DNA of 64,000 bases from a virus (taxonomy: Duplodnaviria > Caudoviricetes): IMG/VR virus record IMGVR_UViG_2615840717_000004, positions 1 to 64,000 of that record, one strand, 5' to 3'. Made by a program: the position numbers and the translations under genes. Below are positions 2,136-46,083 of this stretch, piece after piece. The notes below the pieces were generated by a model, which worked only from the letters and a program-made list of their open reading frames with translations, did no database searches and had not been told where the DNA came from. Position 1 is the first letter of the stretch. Each line of letters begins with the position of its first letter.

Positions 2136-2242
2136 TAAGCGCAACAAAAAACGCGCTCAAAAAGCGGTTTTCTGGCGCGTCGACGCCCTACACAACAAAC
2201 AGGCTGCGAAACCCGGCTCACCACTTTGAAGTGAGCATGGGT

Positions 2243-5801: not shown

Positions 5802-5970
5802 ATGTTAGATATTCAGTTTGCTTTGTGTATTTACAATTAATGGTTGAGTAATAGAGCTTACTTTTATTGTTTGCAATCTCTTAACAAGCCAGAAATTTGC
5901 GACTACGAAAATAGATTTTGCACCTACTGTATCAGCAGCCAAACCACATTGGCTGCGGTCTAAAACAAGA

Positions 5971-6741
5971 CTACTTGAGCCTCAGGACATTGATGTGATC
6001 AAGTTCGCTTTGAGGATCGTCATCACAGGCGAGCGACACATGCCATCTGCCATCGTATGGCTTCATGGAAATGGTTCTTTGGCTGACGCCGGATGACTTG
6101 TCCGCCCTCACCTCACTGCAATCAATAATGGTCAGATACTGGGTCTCTCCTGTGGTGTGCAGAACGGTATCTTCCGCCACCACCATCACATGCCCGGTAT
6201 CCGTCGGATGCTCATCTTTGGGCAGCGACCACGCCAGGATGGACCCACGGGCAATGTAATAGGGCCCGATGTTGACACTGCCGTCCTTCAGCGCCGTGAT
6301 GTTCTGCTTCACGAAAAACTCGTCTGACCCTTGCGTTGCATAGTCATCCGCGAGCTTCTTATCTCCATGCGCATTGAGCGCCGCCCCAACACCGCCGCTC
6401 ACATGAGAGACCACGTGATTGATAAAACCGGAGCAATCGGTAAGCACAAACGGCGCCTCATTCACAATGCCAATACAGGGATTACTTCCACTCCCCGCCA
6501 TGCCATAGACCCCAAAGGTGGAGACGGTGTAAGCGGACTGTATCCGCCTGGTGAGCTCATCTGTGGCAGCATCGAGCTGCTCAAGGAAACTGCTGTTCTT
6601 CAGATTGTCAAAGTTTGAGAACCTCTCATTTTTGAGGAAATCAACTTCGTGATAGGCATAGACATTGAGCACCTGCTCGCTCGCCAAAACAAAGCTCTGT
6701 GCACACTCCAAAACAGAGCGGTAATTGATGGGCAATAACAT
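5971..6741 (-). CDS. NlpC/P60-like cysteine hydrolase (cargo)
   Basis: TDCSGFINHV and TGHVMVV motifs; AAAGGA RBS. Confidence 0.6.
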   Translation of the reverse strand: MLLPINYRSVLECAQSFVLASEQVLNVYAYHEVDFLKNERFSNFDNLKNSSFLEQLDAATDELTRRIQSAYTVSTFGVYGMAGSGSNPCIGIVNEAPFVLTDCSGFINHVVSHVSGGVGAALNAHGDKKLADDYATQGSDEFFVKQNITALKDGSVNIGPYYIARGSILAWSLPKDEHPTDTGHVMVVAEDTVLHTTGETQYLTIIDCSEVRADKSSGVSQRTISMKPYDGRWHVSLACDDDPQSELDHINVLRLK

Positions 6742-6979
6742 TTCCAGTTTCCTTTATTGGTCTTTTTCTGGAGTTGTTCAGATATAAACGCGCCAACCCT
6801 AAGTTTTGTCGGCACCAACACCCAAGCCCTATCTCACCCTAAGGTGTACACCCCTTTTACCTACACCCCCGCATTTTATGCTGCTTGCATTTGTGCGCGA
6901 CTTTCGGTTTTTCGCGCACATGAAATGAGCCAGCCCACATGTGCAGACCGGCTCTTTTTCAGGAGACTTACTTCTCACA

Positions 6980-33145: not shown

Positions 33146-34804
33146 TCATCCCAAGGTCTCCCAACTCATCGTTTCAGGACGCATCTCAGCCGGCAGATTG
33201 AAGCGCACATTGGCGTACTTGCGGATGCGCGTCATCACCTTGCGCATGCCCGGCTTCTTCGGAAGCTCACGACCTAAAGCTGTTTCCGTAAAAGGCTTTA
33301 GGCCGGAAACTTCACACCATTTCTTATAGGTGTCATACATTGCTCGACCTGTAATGGAGGGCTCATTCGGGTCCTCTCCCGGTGGCTCTGCAAACTCCAA
33401 GCAGGCATCAACAAACTGCTGTATTGGATCCAGCTCGGTTTTGTAATCCTGCGTCAGCCCTTCCACGGCAGGTGGAACGTCCAGTCCATCCTCCATGTAG
33501 ATCTGCAGCCCCTTCAGCATCCAGTTGAGAATGCCCGATCGCTCGGCTTCAAACTCCGCCAGCACCTCCGCCATGGGCCGCTTCTGCTCTTCGCTGATCC
33601 GTACCGACCACGGCACAATCAGCAAGCGCCTCCAGATCCCGTAGTCATTGCCCTTGATGAACGGCTTATCGTTGCCGCTCATGATCGCCTTGAAGATCGG
33701 CGTCATATCGAAGAAGCCCTGATGCAGCCGCCGCACCTGCATGGGCTCGCCGCCCGTCAGCGCCTTGATCAGCTCCTCCTTCACCGCCTCACCCTTTGGC
33801 AGCTCGGAGACACGCACCAGACGTTTACCCACCAGCGTGGCAAGATCGGGCGTTGCCTGGTCACCGCGCCGCTGGCCCGTGCCTGTCACGCTCTCCGGGT
33901 TCAGCTGACCGGCATAATCGCCCATCAACCCGCAGATCGCCTCCACGAAGGTGGATTTGCCATTGGCGCCATCGCCATAGAAGAACAGCAGCTTCTGTTC
34001 TGCCGTTAGACCCGTCAGACAATAGCCGGCATACACCTGCAGAAAACGCTGCACACCCACATCGGGCTGGAAGAAATCCAGAAACGCCTGCCACTGCGGA
34101 CATTCTGCTTTCGGGTCAAAATTCACCGGCGCGCATTTGGAAAGCCGCATGGCCCTGTTGTGAACAACAGACTCCGGCACCATCACCTGCCCGCCTTCTC
34201 CATCAGGTTCAGGGTGCAGCTGCAGCGTGGCCGTGCGCGTGTTGAATACAAGGCCATCCTCATCCATCTCTTCGGGCGCATAGGTCACATGCGGCAGAGC
34301 CTGCACAATCATGCCCTTGATCTTGTTGGAATTACCGCTGGAAACCGCAAACTTCTTGCGCGCTGTCCGCCTGCCAGAGCGCGCCTTTTTCACGTCCTCC
34401 GCATCCTTCAGCAGGGCTTCCTGTTCTTTGCTCAGCGAAACATCTGCTGTCGCCCGTGGCACCGCCTTGGCTTTGTCCAGCACCAGCTCCTCCCAGGGCT
34501 CATAGCCAAGGTAATCCAGCTCTTCTTTGATCAGCTCCGCCGTGCGCTGCGCATAGCGGGTCATCACTTCCTCACCGCCGGTTAGATCCCAGTGGGTGCC
34601 TTTGAAGGTATAAAACCCAACCTCCCGCACATGCAGAAATTCCTCGCCAAAATGCTCGCGAAGCCGCTTGGCATTGCCCGTATCATTCTGGTCATAAAGG
34701 GCGCAGCGCGAGAGTTTTTCCGCAAACTCAGTTGAAAGTGGGGTGATGAGGGGATCGTCGCTTGGCTGCATAGCCTCTTCAATCGCTTGGCTCATGGTGC
34801 TCAT
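33146..34804 (-). CDS. P4-family/D5-like SF3 helicase
   Basis: NDTGNA.R, Walker A GDGANGKST, IKALTGGE, WRRL motifs. Confidence 0.93.
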   Translation of the reverse strand: MSTMSQAIEEAMQPSDDPLITPLSTEFAEKLSRCALYDQNDTGNAKRLREHFGEEFLHVREVGFYTFKGTHWDLTGGEEVMTRYAQRTAELIKEELDYLGYEPWEELVLDKAKAVPRATADVSLSKEQEALLKDAEDVKKARSGRRTARKKFAVSSGNSNKIKGMIVQALPHVTYAPEEMDEDGLVFNTRTATLQLHPEPDGEGGQVMVPESVVHNRAMRLSKCAPVNFDPKAECPQWQAFLDFFQPDVGVQRFLQVYAGYCLTGLTAEQKLLFFYGDGANGKSTFVEAICGLMGDYAGQLNPESVTGTGQRRGDQATPDLATLVGKRLVRVSELPKGEAVKEELIKALTGGEPMQVRRLHQGFFDMTPIFKAIMSGNDKPFIKGNDYGIWRRLLIVPWSVRISEEQKRPMAEVLAEFEAERSGILNWMLKGLQIYMEDGLDVPPAVEGLTQDYKTELDPIQQFVDACLEFAEPPGEDPNEPSITGRAMYDTYKKWCEVSGLKPFTETALGRELPKKPGMRKVMTRIRKYANVRFNLPAEMRPETMSWETLG

Positions 34805-35943
34805 GCTGCATCCCTCCCGTTCGCCAGTATCCAGTCATTCATGTCCATGCCGAGCGGCGGCCATAAAATCCGCGCTGATCGCTCTTCAAACCGCAGCCGA
34901 CGCACAGAGCGCTCCAATTGAGCTTTCAGGGCTTCAAGATCCTTGGTGTCACTGTCCGCCAAAACAATCATGGACCGCGCCTCAAACGGCAGAAACGCGC
35001 GGTGGCTGGCCATATCCGGTTGCCGCGTTGGCAACAGATGACCAGTGCGCTCCGGATGCGGCTCGCAGATCCCGTCCGGCTTGCCAGCACCGACCAGATT
35101 GCCAAGCGAGCCCGCACACCAGCACGAAAGCCCAAAGGGCATACAGGACAGGCAGGTCTCAACCCCCTCACCCAGACCCATCACAGGCGCAGGCGGGCCA
35201 AGCCGCAAACTGGCACCCATGTAGGGCCCACGGATCTTTTTGGCTGGCAGTTTGGTGCCATCCTCAAGGCTCAGTGTGATCTTCCCGCTGCCATCTGATT
35301 TCAGCCAGGTCTGGTGAACAGCGGCAAACCGGCCATGCTTGTTCTGAAAAGCCGCCAGCAGCGCCGGCCCGCGATGGATGATCTCAAAGCGATCTTTCTC
35401 TATCTCTGCCCAATACGGCAGATCCGCAGCAAACCGCAGCACAGCACCGGGCAATAGCACATCCCCCAGCCCACGTGCTTCACGCAGATAGGTTTCCGCC
35501 ACACTGCCCGCCAGCTCCCGACCGCTAGAGAAGATTTTATGTGCCGCCTGCCGCGCTTTCTCCTGACTGTTCGCTGCTCGGGCATCTGCCAGACGCTGGT
35601 TGTCCTGCACCAGCTTTTGCTGTTTTTCCTGCCAGCGCTGATCACGGGCTACCTGAGCCCCGCCAAGCGTTTCAACAGCATCTGCAAAGCTGGAGTACCC
35701 CTCAAACTCCATCATCCAATCAATGACGGACCCGGAGCGACCGCAGGCCGTGGAGTAGCAGCGGAAACTGTTTTTCTCCGGATCAAACACAAAGCTGGCA
35801 TTGCGATCATCATGGTCGGGAAACGGACATTTTCCGGAATACAGCCGACCAGATTTACGTAGCGTGGTGTGCTGGCAAATACGCCCGTAAAGATCCGCAG
35901 ATTGCTTCAACCGCAACAATTCAAGAGTGGAATACCGCATCAC
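34801..35943 (-). CDS. CHC2 zinc-finger / Toprim primase
   Basis: CPF..H.D...SF, C....CG; GEGVET; ADSD; DMND. Confidence 0.88.
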   Translation of the reverse strand: MMRYSTLELLRLKQSADLYGRICQHTTLRKSGRLYSGKCPFPDHDDRNASFVFDPEKNSFRCYSTACGRSGSVIDWMMEFEGYSSFADAVETLGGAQVARDQRWQEKQQKLVQDNQRLADARAANSQEKARQAAHKIFSSGRELAGSVAETYLREARGLGDVLLPGAVLRFAADLPYWAEIEKDRFEIIHRGPALLAAFQNKHGRFAAVHQTWLKSDGSGKITLSLEDGTKLPAKKIRGPYMGASLRLGPPAPVMGLGEGVETCLSCMPFGLSCWCAGSLGNLVGAGKPDGICEPHPERTGHLLPTRQPDMASHRAFLPFEARSMIVLADSDTKDLEALKAQLERSVRRLRFEERSARILWPPLGMDMNDWILANGRDAA

Positions 35944-36182
35944 ACCAGCCTCCCTTGTTTGGGAGGACGCGGCGGCGGCGGCGTGCGCTTGGCTGCCTCA
36001 ACATCCGCCTCATACTGCTTGGCATGGTCCGGACAGAACCACAGCTGCTGACGCTTGCCAGCATCATCCACGGTGTAGCCACGAGAACCCCAGGTTGTGC
36101 AGCCCTCTGCCATGCAAGGGTGCTCAGAATGGCCAGTGGAAGTGGTTCTGGGTGTTTTCCTACGATCAATCTTGAGGGTCAT
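35940..36182 (-). CDS. Small putative zinc-binding protein
   Basis: C..EGC...WFC.DH; ATGA-coupled to the upstream antisense ORF. Confidence 0.7.
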   Translation of the reverse strand: MTLKIDRRKTPRTTSTGHSEHPCMAEGCTTWGSRGYTVDDAGKRQQLWFCPDHAKQYEADVEAAKRTPPPPRPPKQGRLV

Positions 36183-37906
36183 GCGGCGCACCTCTCAACA
36201 TTTACGGAATGCCAGAAAGGATCATTGTCGTTAGAACTTGCGTATGAATGATGCAAGTTGCGAGTAAAATATTGATACCTTGGGAAATGAAAATCACTTT
36301 GCAGTACATTGTCTTGGCGGCAATTGGAGTAGCTATTGGTTGCTTTTATGGCGCTGCAACTATTTCGACTTGGGGGGGTGGAGTACCTGAGAACGCAATT
36401 GTTATCCAATATTCTGAAGAGACGTTTTATCGGGAATGGGTGTCTGCTCTTGGAAGTTATGCGGGTGGTTTGATTGCACTTATCGGCATTGCGGTCGCAT
36501 GGGTGGGAATCAAATCTCAGCTTCGCAAAATGCAACAGACAAATGCTATTGCTGAGCTGACGCATACCTTCAAAGCGATACAGTTTATTGATCAAGAACA
36601 TAGAAGAAACCAGGCTCCAGAGCTCTACATCAATGCTATGCTGCGGCACTATCGAGACAAAACCCCTTGGCAACGGGCTTATCTGCCAACTGATGGTGGT
36701 CCTGATTTTGCTGAATTGATCACTTATAGAAACAACTGGCTTCATGATCTGCAAAACACAGCAGATGAAGCTAACGCCTGCCTCCCGATAAAATTCATAC
36801 ATAGACGAAACGCACTTATCGAAGCATTGAATGCTATGTTTTTCAGCAACTCTAAGAGTAGCGATCCAGCGCATTCTCTTTCTTACGATTTCGCCGCCGG
36901 CAATCTCGAAGTAATTCAAAACCATTTTAGTAGAATGAGTGCAGTTGACACTGCTTGGTACAATTATTTTGTATGCCTTGTTTTTTGGAAAAAACAACTT
37001 GAAGAGCAGCAAACCGTTGCTTTCAATCTCGATAGAGTTGAGGCTCAAATGCCTCCACTTGGTAAATAGCAACCCAGCATTCTTTTTAATTATGTCATTG
37101 AAAACTAGGTAATTAGCATGACAAAACGGCTTGGTTTGACCGGCGTCCTTTTTGGCTTTGTAATTTTGGCTGGAGCAGTTGGATATTGGGGGATATTGCT
37201 GGCAGACCTCACTCTCAACAGAATTGGCTTTTGTGAGATAAAAGGTGAAGCAGTTTCGACCTTCGAATGTACAAGAGAGTGGATTGGAGCAACGAGTGGT
37301 TGGGCTGCCGCAATCGCTGCTGGTTGTACAATATATGTACTTATTGACCACTCCAAAGAGTTGCAAAAAGGAAACCACTTCTCTCGTTATTCTCAACTCG
37401 CCCAAATTAAAGGTGAACTGATGCCAGAGTTTGATTTGGGCACATTCTGGAACAAGCTTTACACCAATGAGCTCAAAATAACGGGTCGGACTTATCCTAA
37501 TGATGACATCATACACGAGTTTCTTGGCTTGCTGATCCAACTCTCGGATAGCCTTAGAAGTAATCGAGAAAGTGCCAATAGATTTCTTCCAGAAGAAGTT
37601 CTTGAAAATCGGAAGGCACTTGAAAACTATTTGAGAGCATACATCGAAGGATGGAAGATCCGTGAATTCTTGAAGGGGAACGAAGAAGGAAATCTCGGAT
37701 TGACAGAAAAAAGGACTCGTGTCTTTGTTCGACATTTGCGAAAAGCTGCAAAAATAACCGATCCTAATCAAATTGTTGGGCCTAGTGAGATTCATTTCCT
37801 TTATCTCATCATTCAAACGTTTAGAGAGTTCACTAGCCAATGTGTCACTTTGCATGACGCACTCAAGCTTGAAAGAATACGGAATGCTGAGGAAGTAGGC
37901 TATCAC
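36179..37906 (-). other. Antisense bridging ORF 3 (575 aa) spanning two + strand cargo genes
   Basis: AAGGAGG RBS, GTGA overlap with the BRO stop, ATGA overlap with the next gene; ends SSNDN...CAA. Confidence 0.6.
36248..37069 (+). CDS. Membrane-anchored hypothetical cargo protein
   Basis: 273 aa, two N-terminal TM segments, low GC. Confidence 0.75.
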   Translation: MMQVASKILIPWEMKITLQYIVLAAIGVAIGCFYGAATISTWGGGVPENAIVIQYSEETFYREWVSALGSYAGGLIALIGIAVAWVGIKSQLRKMQQTNAIAELTHTFKAIQFIDQEHRRNQAPELYINAMLRHYRDKTPWQRAYLPTDGGPDFAELITYRNNWLHDLQNTADEANACLPIKFIHRRNALIEALNAMFFSNSKSSDPAHSLSYDFAAGNLEVIQNHFSRMSAVDTAWYNYFVCLVFWKKQLEEQQTVAFNLDRVEAQMPPLGK

Positions 37907-37939
37907 GACCCCACCTCCTTCACTCGCAACCCGCGATAA
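37118..37939 (+). CDS. Membrane-anchored hypothetical cargo protein
   Basis: 273 aa, two TM segments; REWIGATSGWAA resembles REWVSALGSYAG of the neighbour. Confidence 0.75.
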   Translation: MTKRLGLTGVLFGFVILAGAVGYWGILLADLTLNRIGFCEIKGEAVSTFECTREWIGATSGWAAAIAAGCTIYVLIDHSKELQKGNHFSRYSQLAQIKGELMPEFDLGTFWNKLYTNELKITGRTYPNDDIIHEFLGLLIQLSDSLRSNRESANRFLPEEVLENRKALENYLRAYIEGWKIREFLKGNEEGNLGLTEKRTRVFVRHLRKAAKITDPNQIVGPSEIHFLYLIIQTFREFTSQCVTLHDALKLERIRNAEEVGYHDPTSFTRNPR

Positions 37940-38664
37940 GTAACCACGCGGGCTTTGATTTTTTGGAAGTTGTAGTCCTGTGAGAGGTGGAGCATGGCGC
38001 GGCCGAAGGCGGTCTCGGAGATGATGGGGTGGCCTTCTGTGAGGGCCCAGTCTTTGTAAGCCAGGAACATGGCTCGGGCGGTTATGGTGTAGCCCGCTTC
38101 CAGCTGGCAGCCCTCTTCTATGAAGATGCGCAGTTGATTTTCTGATGATGCGACGATGCCAGTCGGAATATCGACTTTGCGTGGGGTGAAAGAGGAGACC
38201 ATAGGAAGCTCCAGCTTCTCCCAAAGCTCGCAGGCGGCGCGTGGACCGGAGATTTTTGCTGCGATCTCTACCAGTCTGGATTTATTGGCAACCTCTGTCA
38301 GGCTACCAAGATCAGCGCGATCAACCAGTCTCTCTCTGTTTGGGGTATACGCTCCAGTTTTGCGGATGCTCGGCAGAACGTCGTGAGCAAGCCAACGTTT
38401 GAAGCGTTCAGCCTCAGGTTTGCGTGAGCGGAAAATCAGGCGATACAATCCCGGTTCAGAAACGATGGTTACTTTCTGTGCTCCTGAAGGGGTACCTACA
38501 GTATAGGTACCCCTCTCATCATCATCGAGGAGATCGATGGAGTTGCGAGCCTTCTTAATGTCCAAGCAGCCGCACACGTCCTTGCCAACAAACCACGGCT
38601 CCCCCTCCAACTTCACGATACGAACCAGATTATCTTCGAAATCCATATTGATCAGGTCATTCAT
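37903..38664 (-). CDS. BRO-N antirepressor with C-terminal winged-helix-like domain
   Basis: PWFVGKDVC, SEPGLYRLIFRSRKPEAERFKRW...VLPSIRKTG. Confidence 0.9.
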   Translation of the reverse strand: MNDLINMDFEDNLVRIVKLEGEPWFVGKDVCGCLDIKKARNSIDLLDDDERGTYTVGTPSGAQKVTIVSEPGLYRLIFRSRKPEAERFKRWLAHDVLPSIRKTGAYTPNRERLVDRADLGSLTEVANKSRLVEIAAKISGPRAACELWEKLELPMVSSFTPRKVDIPTGIVASSENQLRIFIEEGCQLEAGYTITARAMFLAYKDWALTEGHPIISETAFGRAMLHLSQDYNFQKIKARVVTYRGLRVKEVGS

Positions 38665-39062
38665 GAAACTGCTCCTCGATTTTGCTGCGCGATAGTTTCA
38701 TCAAGGGGGCCCACAGTATGGGCCCCTTTGATCGAAGAAGCGCTATTTGTGTTTAGCGCTGGCTCATCTTTAAGGGGATGAGTTGAACTCACCTCCTCGG
38801 CACCTTGGGTTGGTAAAAGCGTGCGGGTGGAGTGCCACGCGGATTGGGTGTGGGTGAAAATCTCTTTGTGGTGGGTGTGAAGAAGGGATTGCAGGGTCAC
38901 AATGGACTGCACCGCCTCACACTGATGGGGAGGCAGGTTGTTGCCGAGCGCGTTCATGGCGTGCAAAAGCGCGCCAAACTGGGCCACGGCTAAATCAATA
39001 CTTTCAAGGGAAGTTCGAAGTTCACGGCACGCACGTGTCGCGTTATCTGCCAGCACTACCAT
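38661..39062 (-). CDS. icd/kil-position protein (133 aa) under C4-like RNA control
   Basis: AAGGAG RBS overlapping the C4 target; ATGA-coupled to BRO. Confidence 0.7.
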   Translation of the reverse strand: MVVLADNATRACRELRTSLESIDLAVAQFGALLHAMNALGNNLPPHQCEAVQSIVTLQSLLHTHHKEIFTHTQSAWHSTRTLLPTQGAEEVSSTHPLKDEPALNTNSASSIKGAHTVGPLDETIAQQNRGAVS

Positions 39063-39116
39063 GGCAAATCTCCTTGTATCGAGTTGAACCCGACCACAAG
39101 AGAGACCAATCTCTGG

Positions 39117-39189
39117 CGGCCAGACGAACAGGATTGGTCTTACCGCTACAAGGAAACGGCGCGCGTGAGCGCTCCCGCCCGTCTGACCA
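39117..39189 (-). ncRNA. C4/CI-type antisense RNA (module 2)
   Basis: Closing stem TGGTCAGACG/CGTCTGGCCG; CCTTGTA and AGACCAATC are complementary to duplicated targets at 39234-39258 and 39072-39111. Confidence 0.8.
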
Positions 39190-39309
39190 TAGAAAAACCG
39201 CGTCCCATAAGGAAACGCGGCGCATGACGTGCGCCTTGTATCGGAAGGGAGACCAATCCCCGCACGCCTTTGTGTGACGCGCTCACCAGCAAACCACCAG
39301 CTGAGCGGA

Positions 39310-39338
39310 ATCATGGCCTGATTTGTACCTGTTGTCAA
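39310..39338 (-). promoter_or_regulatory. Putative sigma70 promoter of C4 module 2
   Basis: TTGACA-N17-CATGAT. Confidence 0.65.
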
Positions 39339-39413
39339 CGCAGATGGAATCGCGGATAGGTGGTGCTTACAAATTAAGCGCCTTAAAGGTGTGCCGCTAT
39401 CGGAGAGTTGTAC

Positions 39414-40949
39414 ATGCCCACTTTTGAAGAGATGAAAAAATACATCAGTCATGACCCTAAAAAGTGGAATGGATGGCGTACTTTTGAAAACACGAAACGC
39501 GGCTATAAACCGGAAAAAGATGGACGAATAATTTACACCTTTGAAGATGAGGTGGTTGATCTTCCTGCTGAAAGCATTGATTTGAGTTGCTGCCGGTACT
39601 TCAATGTCGACTTTGTCACCCCCCATGCCGTAGAAACGGACTTTACAGACGCAGAGTTTGATAGAAGCACATTCAAAGTTCTGACAATGCGCAGCGCCAC
39701 TTTTTTTCGAAGTAAACATCACCGAACTGAGTTTACAGACAATGATTTTGAAGACGTGCTTTTCAAGAATAGTGAACTGACGAAATGTAGTTTTGAAAAT
39801 GTGAAATTCGCAAAGTGCAACTTGGTGCAGTGCGAAGCTTTCGAAAGCAACTTTAGTGGTTCGGAAGCCGTGAATACAGACTTTGAAGGTTGCAGACTTC
39901 ACCAAACCACTTGGTACAAAACTGTCTATGATGAGTGTAATTTCGCTAAAGCACGCTTCGGAGCAGCCCAACTCATCAACGCTAAGTTTTATCATTCTAT
40001 TTTCGATGACGCTCAGTTCGCGAAAGCGACAATAACTGGTGGGCATTTCAAGTACGGCAGAGCCCTTTCTGCAAACTTTCAAGCTGCAACAATCTCTGAC
40101 TGCGACTTCGTTCAAGTTGACCTCAGAGGTGCTAACTTCACGAAAGCAGAAATCGACAACGTTCACTTTGGTGGTTGTGATCTGAGAGGAGCGAACTTTG
40201 TTGGAACTGGTATCTGGGGACCGGAGCAATTGCCAGGAGCAAGGGTTGACGAGACAACGATATTCCAAGCAAGACCTCAAGATAGTTTGAAAGAGGCTCC
40301 GTCGAAAGATGAAGTAACAGAGAGCGCCATTTTCTCTGCAGACAATCCAAACGCTCTCGATCTCAGCGAAGTCAGTGCCAGTCAACCACTTAAAACAGAC
40401 AAAGGAACCCTTGATCACCATCAGGTTATGAGCGTCAACACCCCTGTCTATTTTACCAAGGCAGACGGAACAGACACTCAAATTACTCTTGCTAGTATCG
40501 CGATCGCCATGCGCGGGAAGCAGAATGCTATCCCTGAAATATTTGAGAGAGTGATCAAAGCCGCAGAAAACGGCGAAGACATTCGTTTCAAAGACAAAGA
40601 AGAAGAGTGGCTTGAACTTCTTACGGCTGACTGGATTGCACCTGAAGATAAAGAAGCCTGCTTTGAAGCAATTAGAAAAGCTATGACAGAAGAGCACGCA
40701 GCTCCGTACTTCGGCAGCTTGGAATGGTTGACGCCAGAAAATCTTGAAACAATACGTGAGGGCCTGCTTTTTTGCCAAGAACTTGGAAATGGAAATGTAG
40801 TGATCGGTGCTTTTAAAGCTGGCGCTAGTGTTTTCTCTTTTGGCATCTTTCCGGTCGGACTTTACCATGTACATAAAATAATGGATGTCCTTACGAACAG
40901 GTTTGCAGCTGCAGATAGACAACGCGACAAAGAGCTGGAAGACAGCTAG
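39414..40949 (+). CDS. Pentapeptide-repeat protein with unknown C-terminal domain
   Basis: About 200 aa of A(D/N)F/L-type five-residue periodicity; GGAGAG RBS. Confidence 0.88.
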   Translation: MPTFEEMKKYISHDPKKWNGWRTFENTKRGYKPEKDGRIIYTFEDEVVDLPAESIDLSCCRYFNVDFVTPHAVETDFTDAEFDRSTFKVLTMRSATFFRSKHHRTEFTDNDFEDVLFKNSELTKCSFENVKFAKCNLVQCEAFESNFSGSEAVNTDFEGCRLHQTTWYKTVYDECNFAKARFGAAQLINAKFYHSIFDDAQFAKATITGGHFKYGRALSANFQAATISDCDFVQVDLRGANFTKAEIDNVHFGGCDLRGANFVGTGIWGPEQLPGARVDETTIFQARPQDSLKEAPSKDEVTESAIFSADNPNALDLSEVSASQPLKTDKGTLDHHQVMSVNTPVYFTKADGTDTQITLASIAIAMRGKQNAIPEIFERVIKAAENGEDIRFKDKEEEWLELLTADWIAPEDKEACFEAIRKAMTEEHAAPYFGSLEWLTPENLETIREGLLFCQELGNGNVVIGAFKAGASVFSFGIFPVGLYHVHKIMDVLTNRFAAADRQRDKELEDS

Positions 40950-41378
40950 ATGACTGCTTTGCCCCCTGCTCCACCGAGACCTTTCCGCTCTTACCTGCCA
41001 GGACAGCTGCGTGGGTTTGGGTTTGTTTTTGCGGGTAATTTGTGGAGTTTGGGTGTCTATCTGATTTATCAGGGCAGCGCGCTGCGGGACTGGTTTCTGG
41101 CTGGGTTTCTCTGGATTGTTGGGGCGGTTATCGTTTACTGGCTGGCAACGCGGATTGAGCCCGTTTTCAGCCCGCTCAAAGCCCTGCTGGTCACCCTTTT
41201 CTTTCAGGTGCAGATGTTCGCCGCCATCGCCCTCATCCGCGTTAGCCTGGCGGATTTCGAGATTGAGGCCCTCAACCAGCTGAGCATCACCCAAATGGTT
41301 CTGGCCGTCTACATCCTCATGATCCCCATAACCCTCCTCACCGCTTTCATAAGCTGGGTGAGGCAGAGCAACGACTGA
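40950..41378 (+). CDS. Small multi-pass membrane protein
   Basis: 142 aa, about 4 TM segments. Confidence 0.7.
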   Translation: MTALPPAPPRPFRSYLPGQLRGFGFVFAGNLWSLGVYLIYQGSALRDWFLAGFLWIVGAVIVYWLATRIEPVFSPLKALLVTLFFQVQMFAAIALIRVSLADFEIEALNQLSITQMVLAVYILMIPITLLTAFISWVRQSND

Positions 41379-41456
41379 ATTCTTTTCACTGGCGACAGAC
41401 TGGACACACCTCCACAAACTGAGCGACAGTTGCGCCATTGAAAACACTAGGAGTTC

Positions 41457-41906
41457 TTGAGCAAATTGATGGTTAAAACTAGTGTGCCCCAAAGCGACCA
41501 AACCACCATCGAACCACCTCAAGTTCTGAGCAAAACTGCCCTTACAAAGAAGTACGTTGCTGTTATCGCCTTCATCATTGGTGGACGGAGTCTCTGGACA
41601 CTTTATCCGAAGCTCTCTGGCCCGCTCACTGCACTTCAGTTGGTTATGATCATCGGCTGCTTGACTGCGATCGGCCTTGGTGCTTGGCTTTGGCCTAAGA
41701 AGCTCAATATCATCAACCTGCTTAGCCTGGTTATTCTGGTGAACGTTGGCTTGGCAGTCGTCGTCATAGCCTTTGGCGTTCCGCTCTTCTTCCTGACTTA
41801 CTTTGAGCTCATTGATGAATGGGCCGTTGAACCCGTAACTCTGTATGGTCTGGTGATCACCAGCACTGCTGCCTATATGGTAATCAATATCTTTCGTGCG
41901 CCTTAG
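41457..41906 (+). CDS. Small multi-pass membrane protein
   Basis: 149 aa, about 4 TM segments; start may be ATG 41469. Confidence 0.7.
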   Translation: MSKLMVKTSVPQSDQTTIEPPQVLSKTALTKKYVAVIAFIIGGRSLWTLYPKLSGPLTALQLVMIIGCLTAIGLGAWLWPKKLNIINLLSLVILVNVGLAVVVIAFGVPLFFLTYFELIDEWAVEPVTLYGLVITSTAAYMVINIFRAP

Positions 41907-41908
41907 CA

Positions 41909-43003
41909 TCACGCAGCAGCCCTCCAATTGTCATTGGACGACCGGCGTCCTCTGGTTGAAGACTCAGAGGCATGCAGCATAGTGTGCAAGACAGTTACTT
42001 TGTGCTGTTTTGAGAGCTGAGATTGATGGCGAAGTTTAAACTTCCTTCCCCGCAAACAACAAACTTCTGGGTCGCTTTGGGCTACGGCTTTGCGATCGCA
42101 GCCGTTTGTGCGGTTATCATTGGCGTTGGAACTTTTGCGTATCTGAGTGAAGTGAAGTGGGCTTCCTTTGAATACTGGGGCTCTAGCTCTGTCAGCGGCA
42201 GTGAAGACTTCAAAACAGTACCACGCTCGACTGTTTTTAGAGATGTAGGTGGAACAGCTCTTGCTGTAATTGGTCTCATTTTGCTGACTTGGCGTTCTAT
42301 TGTCTTTCATCGGCAATTGAAGCTTAGCGAAAGAGGGCACAATGCCGAACGCTTTCAAAAGGCAGCCGAAAAGCTCGGCCACCAAAAGCCATCTGTAAGA
42401 GAGGCCGGCGTTCACTCTCTTACCCAACTGGCGATGATTGACCCCGATGAATTTTATGAAGGCACTCAAAAACTGCTTTGCACGTTCATTCGCGAGCAAA
42501 GTTGGGAGCGTTACAGAGAAGAAGAGCTCTCTAAAAGAGTGGCAGAAAAAGAAGCTATACAGCCCCTCGAAGAGACTGAAGAGCTTCCGGGGAAGTTTCA
42601 CCCCTTGCATTCTGAGCTTTGGGAAGCACTTCAAAGCATAGCAATTTTGAAAACAGAGCTCGATCCAAACATGGAGAGGATTGATTTTTTGCAGGTCTCT
42701 GATGCTCTTTTTGAACATCTGAACTTTGAAAACACAGACTTCTCTCATTTCGTGTTGGAAGGAACATTGTTTCAGCATACAAACTTGGAATACTCTAAGT
42801 TTGATGATGCGAACTTGGAAAACACCAAGTTTCCAGAAGCAAATCTCGAAGGCTGTACTTTTAAGAACGCAGAAATGACGGGTGCTCGTATCGAGCCAAA
42901 ATGGCAAGAGCTTTTTAGTGATGAACAACGAGCACAAATCCGTTGGATTAACGAAAACGGATTTGAAATCCCCTTCATTCCTGATCCCGCCTAACACCCT
43001 CAC
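41909..43003 (-). other. Antisense bridging ORF 1 (364 aa) spanning the + strand gene 42026-42994
   Basis: AAGGAGGG RBS, GTGA overlap at 43000-43003, TGATG overlap at its end; ends SSNDNWRAAA. Confidence 0.6.
42026..42994 (+). CDS. Membrane-anchored pentapeptide-repeat protein
   Basis: 2 TM segments, ERFQKAAEKLG...R.AGV.SL motif, C-terminal pentapeptide repeats. Confidence 0.85.
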   Translation: MAKFKLPSPQTTNFWVALGYGFAIAAVCAVIIGVGTFAYLSEVKWASFEYWGSSSVSGSEDFKTVPRSTVFRDVGGTALAVIGLILLTWRSIVFHRQLKLSERGHNAERFQKAAEKLGHQKPSVREAGVHSLTQLAMIDPDEFYEGTQKLLCTFIREQSWERYREEELSKRVAEKEAIQPLEETEELPGKFHPLHSELWEALQSIAILKTELDPNMERIDFLQVSDALFEHLNFENTDFSHFVLEGTLFQHTNLEYSKFDDANLENTKFPEANLEGCTFKNAEMTGARIEPKWQELFSDEQRAQIRWINENGFEIPFIPDPA

Positions 43004-43518
43004 GCCACTGCCCTCCTTGCATTCACCAGCTCACTTGGGCGTGGTGCGCCGACCTGAGTGCAGTAGCGGTTGACAGCTCGGCAGACGACGTGGACACTGA
43101 CGCCGGAGGCGGTGGCGATGCGCTCGTAGTTCCAGTGGAACTGGCAGCTGAGGCCGTAGTAGAAGCAGCCACGGCAGAAGACATCTTTTTTGCGTTTGCT
43201 GTTTGAGGTGAACAGGCGGCCCACGGGCACCTTGCAGGTTTTGGCCACGCCAGCTGCAAAGGTCTGCACCTCCTCTGGCAGTGCCTTGTACAAGCGGATT
43301 TGTGGGGTGAGATGCGCGTTCAGGCTCTGCACCGGATGCAAGGGCACTCCGTTTAGAACAGGCACGCCGGACAGGATGAGCCGCTCGGCTGTCTCTGTCT
43401 TGATCACTCCTTCAATATCGCCCTCTGAACAGCCATAGATGCCTGCGATCGCCCGTGGGCTCATGTTGTTGGCATGATGCTGCAGAATTCTGCGGCGGAT
43501 TTTGGGGGACTGGATCAT
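43000..43518 (-). CDS. HTH DNA-binding protein
   Basis: Two HTH-like segments (PRAIAGIYGCS; YERIATASGVS); ATGA-coupled. Confidence 0.65.
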   Translation of the reverse strand: MIQSPKIRRRILQHHANNMSPRAIAGIYGCSEGDIEGVIKTETAERLILSGVPVLNGVPLHPVQSLNAHLTPQIRLYKALPEEVQTFAAGVAKTCKVPVGRLFTSNSKRKKDVFCRGCFYYGLSCQFHWNYERIATASGVSVHVVCRAVNRYCTQVGAPRPSELVNARRAVA

Positions 43519-44009
43519 TTTACGCCCTCCCGCTCGATGGCCTCGCAGGTTTTATCCAGCTTGACGGCCACGCTGATCAGCTCTGCGATTTCCTTGCGCA
43601 GGTGGTGGCGCTTCACTTCATCAGCAGAGACTTTGCCGTCGTCCTTCAGGCATTCGGCCACGCGGGAGATCACATCAGAGAACTCTTTGGAGAGCTGGCC
43701 CATGTTGCCGATCCAGTCGGGCTCGGCGGCTTCTCGTGGGAGTTTGACCAGGGCGTGGCCGCTCATGCGTGCCAGGATGCGGGTGAGCACGGGATCGGCG
43801 GCCTCATGTTCCAGATCGGCAATCACGTCCACCGGCATGGCATCATGGCTTTGCTGGTTGCCATAGCGGGAGAGCTGGCACGGTGCCACACGAGTGACCA
43901 TGCTGGCCGCCTCCACCCCGCCATTCAGCTTCACCAGAGCTTTGGAGTAGGCAAACAGGCGGGAATAATCAGATTCCGGCAGGGTGCGACTGGTCTGTGA
44001 GCGGGACAT
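43515..44009 (-). CDS. CII-like regulatory protein
   Basis: MPVDVIADLE, DDGKVSADE motifs; position after Cro. Confidence 0.7.
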   Translation of the reverse strand: MSRSQTSRTLPESDYSRLFAYSKALVKLNGGVEAASMVTRVAPCQLSRYGNQQSHDAMPVDVIADLEHEAADPVLTRILARMSGHALVKLPREAAEPDWIGNMGQLSKEFSDVISRVAECLKDDGKVSADEVKRHHLRKEIAELISVAVKLDKTCEAIEREGVK

Positions 44010-44217
44010 GCAAAACTATCCTTCAGTGTTTCGCTGACAGCGCCCAGTCAGTCTTGCAGACTGACCGTCCAAAGCAGCGGAGCCGAGCTGATGCAGGCAG
44101 AGAAATGGAATTTGGAAAAACTGGAGCGCGATGCTGAACGGCAGAACCATGAATGCCGGCGACAGATGCAAAGCGCCCTCGCTGCCTGCCGGTTCGCCCG
44201 GTGCTTTTCGGGCAAGG

Positions 44218-44454
44218 TCAGAGAGGAGTGTCATCGCGGCGCTCCTCTCCGTCTTCTGAAGCATGCTTCCAATTGAAAAGCGTACGCGGAACGGAAAAGC
44301 CTTGGGACGCTCCCATACTGTCCAGCGCATCAAACCAGGCCGCGGGAAAGACGCCCTTGCCTTCGGCGGCATAAATTGCGGATTGCTTGACGCCCAAAGC
44401 CGACTTAACAGCTTCGCGGCCCAGTGATTGGAGAACTTGCTTTGCATCGGTCAT
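44218..44454 (-). CDS. Cro-like HTH regulator
   Basis: LG...V..ALGV..SAI, G.FPAAW; divergent from the repressor. Confidence 0.75.
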   Translation of the reverse strand: MTDAKQVLQSLGREAVKSALGVKQSAIYAAEGKGVFPAAWFDALDSMGASQGFSVPRTLFNWKHASEDGEERRDDTPL

Positions 44455-44542: not shown

Positions 44543-44857
44543 ATGAAAGAACCAGAAGAATCCTCGACCAAACACGTTGCCGAGCGCCTTAAATGGCTCA
44601 AGGAATACTATGACTTGAGCACAAAAGAGCTCGCGAGCAGTGTAGGCGCGAGCTACACCCAGATGGCAAACTGGGAGAATGGCACACAGCGCCTTTCCCT
44701 CAAGGGTGCACTGGCCATTAACGACACTTACGGCACCTCATTGGACTTCTTGTTCATTGGGAGAGTTGAGGCATTGCCACAGAAGATCGCGAAAGCCTGG
44801 ACATCCAGACCACGCGAGAGCAGCTCTAATAAATCGAGCGATAGCCCTGTCGAATAA
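44543..44857 (+). CDS. CI-like XRE-family repressor without a peptidase domain
   Basis: RLKWLKE..LS.KELA..VG.S..Q.ANWENG; only 104 aa. Confidence 0.85.
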   Translation: MKEPEESSTKHVAERLKWLKEYYDLSTKELASSVGASYTQMANWENGTQRLSLKGALAINDTYGTSLDFLFIGRVEALPQKIAKAWTSRPRESSSNKSSDSPVE

Positions 44858-44958: not shown

Positions 44959-46083
44959 TTAGAAGCAGAGGCTATAATAATTGTCACAAAGCGCCATCCG
45001 CACATCCTGAAGAACAAGCTTATAGGTAAATGGCGTAGGAGCGTCATCCAAACTCAAATTAAACTCCTTCATTTTAAGCCCTTGAACCACAACATCATTT
45101 AAGAGCTCTGGATCTCTCTTATATTTTTTTCGAAATTGATTGTATTCGAGCTCAAGCTTCTCCGTTTTCCCAAACGTAAGCCACCAACTTACATCAGCCT
45201 TCACGTATTTTTGCAGAAGAAAATAGAAGTCTTCGCCTATATGAAAGTCATTCGCCTCCACTACGAGAGTTTCTGACTTCGCAGAGTAGGTCAGCGCAGA
45301 GGAAGTCATACCTGCAGCCGAGCGGTCAGCACCTCCAGTCAGTAGAGCTAATTCAATGTCGACTTTGGGCTGCATTGAGTTAATTAACTTTGCTAATGAA
45401 GTCAGAGATCTTGCTCGCTCAATAGAGGTCCAATCACCAATTCCAACCTCCTTAAAAATTAAAATCACCTCCCCGTCTTCATTTTCCTCATCTTCAAACT
45501 TGTAGTAGCCACCACTCACGAATTGCAACGGCATTAGGTTGTGCTTTTTTAGGTCTGAAGGGGTCTCTACCTTCACAAGCTGACTTGAGAAACTCAAATC
45601 CTCACATTTTCGGCCCAGATACTCAAATGCAGCAGAAAGACTCTTTGCACTATAGAGAAAAACATCACCATTCAGGCTCTGTATTTCCATTCCACCCTGC
45701 ACCTGCTTTATGCCCTCTACGGGATAGGAGGAAGGTCTCGAAGCCTCTTCATAAGTAGATAAAACAATACTGCCACGATAGCGTTCTGCCCGTAAACTAA
45801 GGTGGCGAGCCTCCTCATCATCAACTTGAAATAGAAAGCTCATAAATTTCGGATCCCGCGCAGTTCTATGGCTATACTCCTCAAGGCCCAGAAGGGAGAA
45901 GTTATATCGAGCAACAATCCCGCTAGTGCAGGAAATAGCTAACGGCAACGGGAAGTCGGTGTGCCCCGTGGGCTCAATCACGACGGACGCCGTTGCGCGC
46001 GGAAGCGGAGGCGCAACCTCAAACGCATCCGAGTACGCAGCAGTCAAAAATAAAATCAATGAAGTTAATGCGATAGCTTTCAT
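44959..46083 (-). CDS. Secreted hypothetical protein in the immunity region
   Basis: 374 aa, signal peptide, low GC. Confidence 0.7.
   Translation of the reverse strand: MKAIALTSLILFLTAAYSDAFEVAPPLPRATASVVIEPTGHTDFPLPLAISCTSGIVARYNFSLLGLEEYSHRTARDPKFMSFLFQVDDEEARHLSLRAERYRGSIVLSTYEEASRPSSYPVEGIKQVQGGMEIQSLNGDVFLYSAKSLSAAFEYLGRKCEDLSFSSQLVKVETPSDLKKHNLMPLQFVSGGYYKFEDEENEDGEVILIFKEVGIGDWTSIERARSLTSLAKLINSMQPKVDIELALLTGGADRSAAGMTSSALTYSAKSETLVVEANDFHIGEDFYFLLQKYVKADVSWWLTFGKTEKLELEYNQFRKKYKRDPELLNDVVVQGLKMKEFNLSLDDAPTPFTYKLVLQDVRMALCDNYYSLCF

What the first reader, a model, noticed from the sequence alone, without database searches (positions are those of the whole stretch)
36179..43003. Antisense 'bridge' ORFs keep the phage early operon translationally continuous across oppositely oriented cargo genes
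Seen: six + strand cargo genes sit inside the - strand early operon. Three stop-free - strand ORFs span them and their spacers: 43003-41909 (364 aa), 41909-38661 (1082 aa) and 37906-36179 (575 aa). Every junction is an exact start/stop overlap with an SD-like element: AAGGAGGG-cagtggc-GTGA (43000-43003), GGAGGG-ctgctgcg-TGATG (41907-41911), GAGGAG-cagtttc-ATGA (38661-38664), AAGGAGG-tggggtc-GTGA (37903-37906) and GAGAGG-tgcgccgc-ATGA (36179-36182). The coupled chain is therefore unbroken from the CII-like gene (44009) to the helicase (33146). Cargo genes within a block share one codon register, and it is the exact antisense register, so these fairly AT-rich genes avoid TTA/CTA/TCA codons. Other low-GC cargo in the window (2294-4534, 44959-46083) has no such long antisense frame. 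Established: untranslated mRNA invites Rho-dependent polarity, and ATGA/TGATG overlaps couple translation. Inference: selection keeps the antisense frames open so ribosomes reach the replication genes, which creates a double-coded cassette hotspot. The bridge proteins themselves look non-protein-like. I do not recognise this as a described system.
Basis: partly seen in the sequence, partly recalled or inferred. Interest (0 to 1): 0.93.

Follow-up and report, generated by a model that had tools for sequence, protein, structure and literature searches.

The report
Stop-free bridge frames over backward cargo
In this Pseudovibrio prophage, six real accessory genes sit backwards inside the early operon, and the operon's own strand is kept free of stop codons right across them, most likely so that ribosomes can follow the transcript to the antirepressor and replication genes; no searched paper describes this design for DNA phages.

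Summary
Three minus-strand frames of 364, 1083 and 575 codons run stop-free across six plus-strand cargo genes and their spacers. Every junction from the CII-like gene to the helicase is an ATGA, GTGA or TGATG overlap behind a GGAGG-like site. The cargo genes are real: two have pentapeptide Pfam hits, the others have membrane helices, and dN/dS is 0.2-0.6. They contain no TTA, CTA or TCA in 1673 codons, where 31 are expected (P about 2e-14). Other NNA codons are common.

The same design holds in about 11 distinct related Pseudovibrio prophage loci whose cargo alleles share only 25-30% identity. Across 33 non-redundant genes I counted 4 antisense stops against 224 expected, and frames reach 1703 codons. 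It also holds in a second prophage of this genome and in prophages of another family in the same order. Bridge frames evolve neutrally (dN/dS about 1), so openness is selected, not the product.

Bridge 2 also reads through a C4 immunity RNA, in frame, into the icd-position gene coupled to the antirepressor. That is the logic of phage P4 eta/kil.

That translation prevents Rho polarity is inferred, not shown. This scan has reported the same phenomenon before on other DNA (Stenotrophomonas, Janthinobacterium-type and Achromobacter prophages). I found no published description.

The parts
44543..44857 (+). Repressor-like HTH gene, divergent from the early operon
   Evidence: PHROG transcriptional regulator/repressor families, E about 4e-8
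44016..44447 (-). First early-operon gene (143 aa, unknown function)
   Evidence: ORF; no PHROG hit; ends 6 nt before the CII-like start
43515..44009 (-). CII-like activator gene, where the coupled chain starts
   Evidence: phrog_101, 1.3e-13; ATGA overlap to the next gene
43000..43518 (-). Conserved 172-aa early gene; its 3' end carries the SD and GTGA for bridge 3
   Evidence: conserved in all related loci
41909..43003 (-). Bridge ORF 3: 364 stop-free codons antisense to g6 and the g5-g6 spacer
   Evidence: GTGA start and GTGATG end; translation does not look like a protein; no Pfam hit
42023..42994 (+). Cargo g6: membrane plus pentapeptide-repeat protein (323 aa), hypervariable slot 3
   Evidence: Pfam Pentapeptide 3e-13; 0 antisense stops; alleles 22-33% identical
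38661..41911 (-). Bridge ORF 2: 1083 stop-free codons antisense to g5, g4 and g3, then through the c4 promoter, targets and C4 RNA into the icd-position ORF
41457..41906 (+). Cargo g5: 149-aa multi-pass membrane protein; 1-4 paralogous copies in relatives
40950..41378 (+). Cargo g4: conserved 142-aa membrane protein (90-98% identical among loci)
39408..40949 (+). Cargo g3: pentapeptide-repeat protein (likely start ATG 39414), hypervariable slot 2
   Evidence: Pfam Pentapeptide_4 5.8e-23; 511-aa database form; SD read
39310..39338 (-). Promoter-like site for C4 RNA (TTGACA-17-CATGAT), inside bridge ORF 2
39112..39194 (-). C4 antisense (immunity) RNA, inside bridge ORF 2
   Evidence: Rfam RF01695, 55.2 bits against gathering score 45; loop sequences complementary to targets on both sides
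38661..39062 (-). icd/kil-position ORF (133 codons). It is the in-frame tail of bridge ORF 2, and its AAGGAG SD overlaps a C4 target
   Evidence: Sequence read; ATGA overlap to Bro-N/ant; no family hit
37903..38664 (-). Antirepressor (Bro-N / Ant)
   Evidence: Pfam Bro-N 1.3e-24; phrog_130 Ant 6.6e-49
36179..37906 (-). Bridge ORF 1: 575 stop-free codons antisense to g2 and g1
37118..37939 (+). Cargo g2: N-terminal membrane helices plus a soluble domain (273 aa), slot 1
   Evidence: distant homologues elsewhere are also antisense-embedded; weak atlas leads to Abi/retron-effector-like proteins
36248..37069 (+). Cargo g1: membrane-anchored 273-aa protein, slot 1
35940..36182 (-). 80-aa early gene, ATGA-coupled to bridge 1 and GTGA-coupled to primase
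   Evidence: phrog_29777
34801..35943 (-). DNA primase
   Evidence: phrog_510, 3.5e-51
33146..34804 (-). Primase/helicase, end of the coupled chain
   Evidence: phrog_1156, 4.3e-123

Best explanation
This is the early (immunity-to-replication) operon of a temperate Pseudovibrio phage. Three slots in it hold swappable, fast-evolving accessory genes pointing backwards: membrane and pentapeptide-repeat proteins, probably lysogen-expressed defence or exclusion genes. Selection removes every codon in those genes (TTA, CTA, TCA) and every triplet in their spacers that would read as a stop on the operon strand in the codon-aligned frame. The genes of a block are kept in one register, and each resulting 'bridge' frame is joined to its neighbours by an SD plus an overlapping stop/start. 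When the early promoter fires, ribosomes can therefore translate without a break from the CII-like gene to the helicase. The bridge polypeptides themselves have no function. The benefit, by inference, is that the kilobases of C-rich antisense RNA are never left naked behind RNA polymerase. Rho-dependent polarity, and any other penalty of untranslated RNA, is then avoided. Ribosomes also enter the icd-position gene in frame from upstream, which bypasses the C4 RNA block on its ribosome-binding site, so the antirepressor and replication genes are made. Shown here: the frames, the junctions, the codon avoidance, its conservation across very diverged alleles and across lineages, and neutral evolution of the bridge products. 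Inferred: transcription through the cargo, actual translation of the bridges, and Rho as the selective agent.
For: Frames and junctions.

Codon avoidance is specific to the three antisense-stop codons. The expectation is 31.4 against 0 observed, and g3 and g6 are genome-wide outliers. Spacers are stop-free.

Comparative evidence: the same slots in G002, G010 and G006 and in eight IMG/VR loci hold alleles only 22-40% identical. The frames are open in all of them, up to 1703 codons over six genes in L030. Across 33 non-redundant genes and 10,676 codons there are 4 antisense stops against 224 expected. All four lie in G006, where the g3-family gene is split into two ORFs and one of the four stops is itself an ATGA restart.

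dN/dS is 0.19-0.57 in the cargo frame (one short, low-divergence pair 0.92) and 0.63-1.76, about 1.0, in the bridge frame.

Other lineages: a second prophage of this genome has bridges between the 146-aa gene and primase, and between primase and DnaB helicase, all with ATGA/GTGA overlaps. Prophages of another family in the order have 924- and 926-codon bridges.

Controls: cargo that is co-oriented or not embedded has 29-80 such codons per 1000. Pentapeptide homologues in jumbo-phage contigs have 9-11 in 241.

Empty site: where slot 1 is empty (L023), the upstream gene is ATGA-coupled directly to the 80-aa gene.

Rho plausibility: the host has a Rho gene. Operon-strand RNA over the cargo has C/G 1.02-1.17, and 34-44% of 78-nt windows exceed C/G 1.2, against 4-5% in primase and helicase.

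The C4 RNA, its targets and the in-frame icd-position ORF.

Precedent: PMC10111431 states that translation of P4 eta, an ORF coupled to the upstream gene and containing the internal promoter and the CI RNA, prevents termination.
Against: There are no transcript, ribosome or protein data for either strand. No RNA run was listed, so read-through transcription and bridge translation are not shown. Internal promoters (the c4 promoter at 39338-39310, and possibly others) could supply the downstream genes independently. The C/G bias of the antisense RNA is modest, and some real operon genes (the 172-aa gene, Bro) are equally C-rich. In several relatives the chain has a gap of about 65 nt after the 255-aa gene, and G006 has a gap of about 107 nt before a bridge, so strict continuity is not universal. 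Making junk polypeptides of 364-1700 residues looks costly. Nothing here separates Rho from other benefits of translation.
Confidence: 0.65

Rival explanations
1. The bridge frames are kept open for translation itself, but the benefit is not escape from Rho. Ribosomes might protect the operon RNA from RNases or from pairing with cargo mRNA (RNase III). They might push RNA polymerase through head-on encounters with cargo transcription. Or their passage might help shut the cargo off on induction, as in an excludon.
For: The same sequence evidence for selected, product-neutral open frames applies. Cargo and operon are convergent, so sense-antisense pairing and polymerase collisions are expected from the anatomy. 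In ambigrammatic narnaviruses, protection of RNA by ribosomes is the favoured idea (PMC8316113). Noncontiguous operons and excludons use such overlaps for mutual regulation (PMC11034616 abstract).
Against: The embedded C4-icd-ant module and the P4 eta precedent point specifically to translation-dependent escape from termination. Nothing in the sequence argues specifically for RNase protection.
Confidence: 0.17
2. The bridge ORFs encode functional proteins, so this is true dual coding on both strands.
For: The ORFs are long, have SDs and start codons, and are conserved as open frames in all relatives.
Against: dN/dS in the bridge frame is about 1 (0.63-1.76), while the cargo frame is mostly 0.19-0.57. 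Bridge sequences follow cargo alleles that are only 25-30% identical. Their composition is the mirror of the cargo: NAN-rich stretches opposite membrane helices, and a 5-residue periodicity opposite the pentapeptide repeats. There are no Pfam hits. Bridge length varies from 258 to 1703 codons with the number of cargo genes.
Confidence: 0.05
3. The open frames are a by-product. Candidates are ordinary shadow ORFs from codon bias, a donor's codon usage, or avoidance of three codons for tRNA-supply reasons, with no role for the operon strand.
For: This genome has hundreds of long opposite-strand open-frame pairs (541 with at least 750 nt of overlap), and TTA and CTA are rare genome-wide. High-GC3 operon genes such as the helicase also have long shadows.
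Against: The cargo has low GC3 (0.38-0.47), where background genes carry 19-29 such codons per 1000. Other NNA codons are used freely. Non-coding spacers are also stop-free in exactly this frame. Neighbouring cargo genes always share the register, and every frame end coincides with an SD plus start/stop overlap. Co-oriented cargo in the same prophages is normal.
Confidence: 0.03

Closest known systems
Satellite phage P4 eta/kil nested genes (Forti et al. 1999, J Bacteriol 181:5225; seen here only through its summary in PMC10111431)
   Same: A long ORF is coupled to the upstream gene. It contains an internal constitutive promoter and a C4/CI-type immunity RNA, and it ends in frame as the first gene downstream of that RNA. 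Its translation from the upstream promoter prevents termination, so the downstream genes are transcribed. Bridge ORF 2 has this anatomy.
   Different: According to PMC10111431, eta is a protein-coding gene of the Bro network. It lies over no opposite-strand genes (its roughly 200-codon size is from my memory of Forti et al.). Here the upstream 2.5 kb of the frame is meaningless antisense of three real genes. Two further bridges have no immunity RNA at all. Rho dependence is untested.
Phage P1/P7 immI module: c4 antisense RNA - icd - ant (Citron & Schuster 1990; Riedel et al. 1993, as cited in PMC8201110)
   Same: A C4 RNA (Rfam RF01695) has two loop sequences complementary to target pairs. One target overlaps the RBS of a small ORF that is translationally coupled to an antirepressor.
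   Different: The icd-position product has no detectable Icd homology. In P1 the module is a separate operon, not something read into in frame from kilobases upstream. That P1 c4 acts through Rho-dependent termination is from my memory (Biere et al. 1992) and was not checked here.
Ambigrammatic narnaviruses (DeRisi et al. 2019, PMC6884476; Retallack et al. 2021, PMC8316113)
   Same: A codon-aligned reverse frame is kept stop-free over kilobases of a real gene by avoiding the three sense codons that mirror stops. This is conserved across diverged relatives, the reverse product has no recognisable family, and translation itself is the suspected function. The aligned register is the only one in which all stops can be removed synonymously.
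   Different: Those are RNA viruses of eukaryotes with one gene. Here the host is a dsDNA temperate phage, and the frame covers many unrelated swappable genes plus their spacers. It is chained to ordinary genes by SD and start/stop overlaps, and the likely pressure (polarity in a bacterial operon) does not exist in eukaryotes.
Noncontiguous operons and excludons (S. aureus atlas PMC11034616; Listeria excludons)
   Same: An operon transcript runs across an oppositely oriented gene lying between its members, which gives mutually exclusive expression (abstract).
   Different: As far as the abstract goes, the antisense stretch is not reported to be translated or kept stop-free. I did not read the full text for this point.
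Shadow ORFs opposite codon-biased or GC-rich genes
   Same: Long codon-aligned antisense frames; they are common in this genome too.
   Different: Those are explained by rare TTA/CTA/TCA in high-GC3 genes. Here GC3 is 0.38-0.47, the deficit is 0 against 31 (4 against 224 pooled), spacers are included, and the frames are coupled at both ends.

Membership tests
P4 eta/kil-type translation-dependent read-through ORF | C4/CI-type immunity RNA gene and its promoter lie inside the long ORF | tested here: met
   RF01695 at 39112-39194 (-), 55.2 bits. Promoter-like site at 39338-39310. Both lie inside the stop-free frame 41933-38663.
P4 eta/kil-type translation-dependent read-through ORF | A short downstream gene with its own RBS is the in-frame 3' part of the long ORF | tested here: met
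   ATG 39062 with an AAGGAG SD, in the same frame and with the same stop at 38661-38663.
P4 eta/kil-type translation-dependent read-through ORF | [quoted passage not shown] | tested here: met
   GGAGGG, then 8 nt, then GTGATG at 41911. This is conserved in the relatives. It is a sequence-level test only.
P4 eta/kil-type translation-dependent read-through ORF | Translation of the ORF suppresses a Rho-dependent terminator | not testable with these tools
   Only indirect evidence: the host has a Rho gene and the RNA over the cargo is C-rich.
P1 immI (c4-icd-ant) | C4 loops complementary to targets, one of which covers the RBS of the gene upstream of ant | tested here: met
   CCTTGTA and AGACCAATC in C4; TACAAGG and GATTGGTCT on both sides of it; the downstream TACAAGG overlaps the AAGGAG SD.
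P1 immI (c4-icd-ant) | Antirepressor gene coupled downstream | tested here: met
   ATGA at 38664-38661; Bro-N 1.3e-24, Ant PHROG 6.6e-49.
P1 immI (c4-icd-ant) | Icd protein homology | tested here: not met
   No PHROG or NCBIfam hit for 38661-39062/39110.
Ambigrammatic coding (narnavirus type) | Reverse frame is codon-aligned with the forward gene and stop-free over its whole length | tested here: met
Ambigrammatic coding (narnavirus type) | [quoted passage not shown] | tested here: met
   33 non-redundant genes, 4 stops against 224 expected.
Ambigrammatic coding (narnavirus type) | RNA virus genome carrying an RdRp | tested here: not met
   This is a dsDNA prophage in a bacterial chromosome. 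It is an analogue, not a member.
Noncontiguous operon / excludon | One transcript spans operon genes on both sides of an opposite-strand gene | not testable with these tools
   The gene arrangement fits. There is no transcript evidence.
Codon-bias shadow ORF | Open antisense frame is explained by the gene's composition or codon bias | tested here: not met
   At GC3 0.40-0.45 the background is 28.7 such codons per 1000. 31.4 are expected and 0 seen. Spacers are also open.
Known anti-phage defence systems (for the cargo) | Match to a PADLOC or NCBIfam defence model above its cut-off | tested here: not met
   No PADLOC hit. HalA matches only over the pentapeptide repeats, far below its cut-off. 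The atlas gives weak leads only.

The most novel reading that the evidence does not exclude
Temperate phages of Proteobacteria follow a general, undescribed design rule. Accessory genes placed backwards inside early operons must be 'ambigrammatic': free of TTA, CTA and TCA, sharing a register, and with stop-free spacers. The operon strand then carries a relay of meaningless but translated bridge ORFs. This has produced a circulating pool of cassettes pre-adapted to two-strand reading. In C4-type phages the relay also acts as the override of RNA-based immunity, because ribosomes arrive in frame at the blocked gene.
Probability: 0.5. Interest if true: 0.9.

Novelty: new variant of a known kind. 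Interest (0 to 1): 0.85.

Why it matters
If the bridges are translated to keep the operon transcript covered, four things follow.

1. Selection for translation itself can shape kilobases of sequence in DNA phages, as was proposed for ambigrammatic narnaviruses.

2. It would explain how phages can carry lysogen-expressed defence or exclusion genes in the safe backward orientation inside essential operons without paying for it in polarity.

3. It gives annotators a simple sequence signature for real antisense-embedded cargo and for the direction of read-through transcription: a codon-aligned stop-free frame over low-GC genes, coupled at both ends.

4. It provides a natural test bed for transcription-translation coupling and Rho surveillance, including in Alphaproteobacteria. 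A single change that is synonymous in the cargo should be polar on the replication genes.

It also warns that 'hypothetical proteins' of 300-1700 residues called on such frames are not proteins in the usual sense.

Tried and rejected
- Megablast of 36000-43100 against the phage and E. coli collections found no match.
P0005 is probably the 507-aa allele in L025.
- Sequencing runs: no RNA holder was listed, so no expression evidence could be sought and read laying was not used.
- Forti 1999 (PMC94026) and Riedel 1993 (PMC204598) are not held. P4 and P1 facts come from later papers that summarise them, and from memory where I say so.
- PADLOC, NCBIfam and Pfam gave no function for g1, g2, g4 or g5. 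The atlas gave weak leads only.
- g3 has almost no homologues outside these prophages, so 'homologues outside prophage operons' could be tested only with generic pentapeptide genes of jumbo-phage contigs and with non-embedded cargo.
- The 600-codon operon-strand ORF over three small opposite ORFs in L015/L017 could not be resolved either way.
- G140 (L043, GC 0.63) is uninformative because high GC alone gives open frames.
- The idea that the minus-strand ORFs are the real genes and the plus-strand ones are shadows is rejected by Pfam hits, membrane helices and dN/dS.
- The idea of frame-independent trinucleotide avoidance is rejected because stops abound in the other two frames.
- My first automatic list of bridge frames also picked up ordinary shadows of high-GC3 operon genes such as the helicase. 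Those rows were ignored.

Full report
**Where this is.** The window is contig C39:29572-93571 of a 5.85-Mb genome with 51.2% GC. The genus is Pseudovibrio, because its closest relative G002 is Pseudovibrio sp. Alg231-02. The region 33-46 kb is the early region of a prophage. A repressor-like HTH gene (44543-44857, +) faces a minus-strand operon. That operon holds a 143-aa gene, a CII-like gene, a 172-aa gene, a Bro-N/Ant antirepressor, an 80-aa gene, a primase and a primase/helicase.

**Checking the observation.** The minus-strand stop map shows one frame without stops from 43033 to 41911 and from 38284 to 36181, and another without stops from 41933 to 38663. The remaining frames have a stop every 30-60 nt. 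ORF listing and a chain-walking script give this relay: CII-like, then the 172-aa gene, bridge 3 (364 codons), bridge 2 (1083), Bro/Ant (253), bridge 1 (575), the 80-aa gene, primase and helicase. Every step is a -1 overlap (ATGA, GTGA, or GTGATG) behind a GGAGG-like motif.

The six plus-strand genes are real. g3 and g6 match pentapeptide-repeat families at 6e-23 and 3e-13. g1, g2, g4, g5 and the N-terminus of g6 have clear membrane helices. The cargo frame is under purifying selection. The minus-strand translations mirror them: NAN-rich stretches lie opposite membrane helices, and a 5-residue periodicity lies opposite the repeats. They match no family.

**Is it more than chance?** The six genes have no TTA, CTA or TCA in 1673 codons at GC3 0.38-0.69, yet they use ATA, GTA, ACA, CCA and GCA freely. 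This genome does have many long antisense frames: 541 opposite-strand pairs overlap by at least 750 nt, because TTA and CTA are rare in its GC3-rich genes. That does not explain this case. With a simple gene finder (4230 genes), genes of GC3 0.40-0.45 carry 28.7 such codons per 1000, and g3 and g6 are the two longest low-GC3 genes with none. I used the Leu and Ser usage of 1229 background genes of GC3 0.40-0.52 and the cargo's own Leu and Ser counts. That gives 31.4 expected in the window against 0 seen, P = 2e-14. The non-cargo parts of the frames are open too: 282 codons in bridge 2 have no stop, while the other two frames have 28 stops in 558 codons. Co-oriented low-GC cargo in the same window is ordinary, with 22 in 746 and 20 in 374.

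**Relatives.** A DNA search of 40 related genomes found the same prophage type in G002, G010 and G006. Only the operon genes, g4, the C4 region and junction pieces of about 115-130 nt are conserved at the DNA level. The cargo between them is replaced. Eight more loci came from IMG/VR through the g4 protein. Two of them are the same prophages as G002 and G010, so with G016 (L014) there are about 11 distinct loci.

At each slot the cargo is a very diverged allele of one family. The g6 family is 22-33% identical, the g3 family 26-30% to the window allele, g1/g2 28-40% over parts, and g5 occurs in 1-4 paralogous copies. g4 stays 90-98% identical.

In every locus the operon strand is open across the cargo. 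Frames reach 1240, 1465 and 1703 codons over four, five and six cargo genes (L027, L025, L030). The junctions have the same SD-plus-overlap form. I defined cargo by homology, not by openness. The 33 non-redundant genes (<90% identity, 10,676 codons, GC3 0.47) then contain TTA 0, CTA 2 and TCA 2, where 224 are expected. All four lie in G006. There the g3-family gene is split into two ORFs, which may mean the prophage is decaying, and one of the four stops is itself an ATGA restart inside a cargo gene.

Where slot 1 is empty (L023), the upstream gene is ATGA-coupled directly to the 80-aa gene. In L025, L027 and L030, slot 3 holds a co-oriented 244-aa gene, and that gene has a normal number of such codons.

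**Product or process?** I ran Nei-Gojobori estimates on allele pairs of 54-87% identity. The cargo frame gives dN/dS 0.19-0.57, with one short, low-divergence pair at 0.92. The codon-aligned bridge frame gives 0.63-1.76, centred on 1.0. The bridge frames are therefore constrained only to lack stops.

**Other lineages.** Distant homologues of g2 led to three further prophage lineages.

- A second prophage of this same genome (C39:108-127 kb, L044) has the chain 154-aa gene, 146-aa gene, bridge (258 codons over a 246-aa backward gene), primase, bridge (291 codons over a 269-aa backward gene), DnaB-like helicase. All steps are ATGA or GTGA.
- Two genomes of another family in the order (G236, G202) have bridges of 926 and 924 codons over two backward genes, upstream of the replication-initiator genes. 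G202 also has a further bridge of 354 codons.

In these loci, low-GC3 genes that are not embedded have 21-23 such codons each. Generic pentapeptide homologues in jumbo-phage contigs have 9-11 in 241 codons.

**The immunity module inside bridge 2.** Rfam finds a C4 antisense RNA at 39112-39194 on the minus strand. It is also present at the equivalent place in all Pseudovibrio relatives examined. In the other family an sRNA-Xcc1 of the same length sits at that place, inside the bridge. Reading the sequence shows four things:

- a promoter-like TTGACA-17-CATGAT;
- target pairs GATTGGTCT and TACAAGG both upstream and downstream of C4, complementary to CCTTGTA and AGACCAATC in the RNA;
- the downstream TACAAGG overlapping the AAGGAG SD of ATG 39062;
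- that 133-codon ORF being in frame with bridge 2 and ATGA-coupled to the antirepressor.

This is the P1 immI layout of c4, icd and ant (PMC8201110). It is read into from upstream in the manner of P4 eta/kil. [quoted passage not shown] From memory, and not checked here, the terminator in P4 is Rho-dependent (Forti et al. 1999), and P1 c4 acts by blocking icd translation, with Rho-dependent termination before ant (Biere et al. 1992).

**Mechanism.** The shown facts fit one reading best: the operon strand must be translatable without interruption. The reason is inferred. RNA antisense to genes tends to be C-rich and untranslated, which suits Rho. Here the operon-strand RNA over the cargo has C/G 1.02-1.17, and 34-44% of 78-nt windows exceed C/G 1.2, against 4-5% in primase and helicase. 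The host has a Rho gene. In-frame arrival of ribosomes at the icd-position gene would also make early-promoter transcripts insensitive to C4.

The backward orientation itself makes sense if the cargo is expressed in the lysogen, since its transcription then cannot leak into ant and the replication genes. That too is inference. The codon-aligned register is the only one in which every antisense stop can be removed synonymously (PMC6884476), which explains why all cargo uses it.

**What the cargo is.** No defence model matches. The pentapeptide parts give sub-threshold hits to many repeat families, including HalA. g2 gives weak atlas leads to membrane-anchored Abi or retron-effector-like proteins. 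Hypervariability at fixed slots in a prophage suggests exclusion or defence, but this is a lead only.

**Novelty.** Five full-text searches found no description of stop-free, coupled antisense frames over backward genes in phages. The closest things are P4 eta (principle and local anatomy), ambigrammatic narnaviruses (sequence signature and 'translation itself') and noncontiguous operons or excludons (arrangement). Notes of this scan report the same phenomenon in Stenotrophomonas, Janthinobacterium-type and Achromobacter prophages. I did not check those cases. They suggest the rule is wide. This window adds:

- an alphaproteobacterial case with the longest frames so far seen here;
- a comparative series of about 14 distinct loci;
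- the dN/dS contrast between cargo and bridge frames;
- the direct link to a C4 immunity switch.

**Limits.** There are no expression data. The Rho step is untested. Genome handles outside Pseudovibrio are unnamed. Related loci are not independent samples, although allele divergence is near saturation.

Noticed in passing
window 2054-2140 (-), with the frame running from about 2293 down to 1751 (-): A second C4 antisense RNA (RF01695, 62 bits). It lies downstream of co-oriented low-GC cargo (2294-4534) that has normal TTA/CTA/TCA use. A 180-codon frame reads through this C4 into the next gene, which is eta-like but has no antisense cargo.
   Followed up: partly
G000 C39:108000-127000 (L044), outside the window: Another prophage of the same genome has two backward genes (246 and 269 aa). 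One lies between a 146-aa gene and primase, the other between primase and DnaB helicase. Each is under an ATGA/GTGA-coupled bridge ORF. Nearby plus-strand low-GC3 genes that are not embedded have 21-22 antisense stops.
   Followed up: yes
L041 8125-8209 (-), L042 7521-7604 (-): In prophages of another family in the order, an sRNA-Xcc1 (RF02221, 65-66 bits, 87 nt) sits inside the 924- and 926-codon bridge ORFs, at the position C4 holds in Pseudovibrio. This suggests it is the functional equivalent of C4 there.
   Followed up: partly
window 39197-39221 (-): A hairpin of 10 pairs followed by a T run lies immediately 5' of the C4 RNA and inside bridge ORF 2. It could be a leader or processing structure, or a translation-sensitive terminator. 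I did not check its conservation.
   Followed up: no
window 41909-41935, 36179-36200, 43000-43020 (-): Bridge 3, bridge 1 and the 172-aa gene end in ...RAAA, ...RCAA and ...RAVA. Other notes read these as degradation tags. The tails are encoded by the conserved SD plus a GC-rich spacer (GGAGGG-CTGCTGCG and similar), so they may simply be a by-product of the junction. A role as a ClpXP-type signal is not excluded.
   Followed up: partly
L017 5377-7179 (+) and the equivalent in L015: In two other Pseudovibrio C4-bearing prophages, a 600-codon operon-strand ORF lies over three small opposite ORFs (157, 132 and 110 aa) that have no antisense stops. Pfam could not say which strand is the real one. 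A C-5 methylase gene follows it.
   Followed up: partly
L011 (G006), operon-forward coordinates 3670-3850 and 5405-6951: This is the only locus with antisense stops in the cargo. Its g3-family gene is split into two ORFs (150 + 323 aa), and there is a gap of about 107 nt before the slot-3 bridge. That looks like relaxation in a decaying prophage.
   Followed up: partly
whole genome G000: There are 541 opposite-strand pairs of stop-free frames overlapping by at least 750 nt in a 51% GC genome. TTA (3.8 per 1000) and CTA (4.1 per 1000) are unusually rare, while CTT and CTC are favoured. Ordinary shadow ORFs are therefore common here, and annotation pipelines may miscall them.
   Followed up: partly
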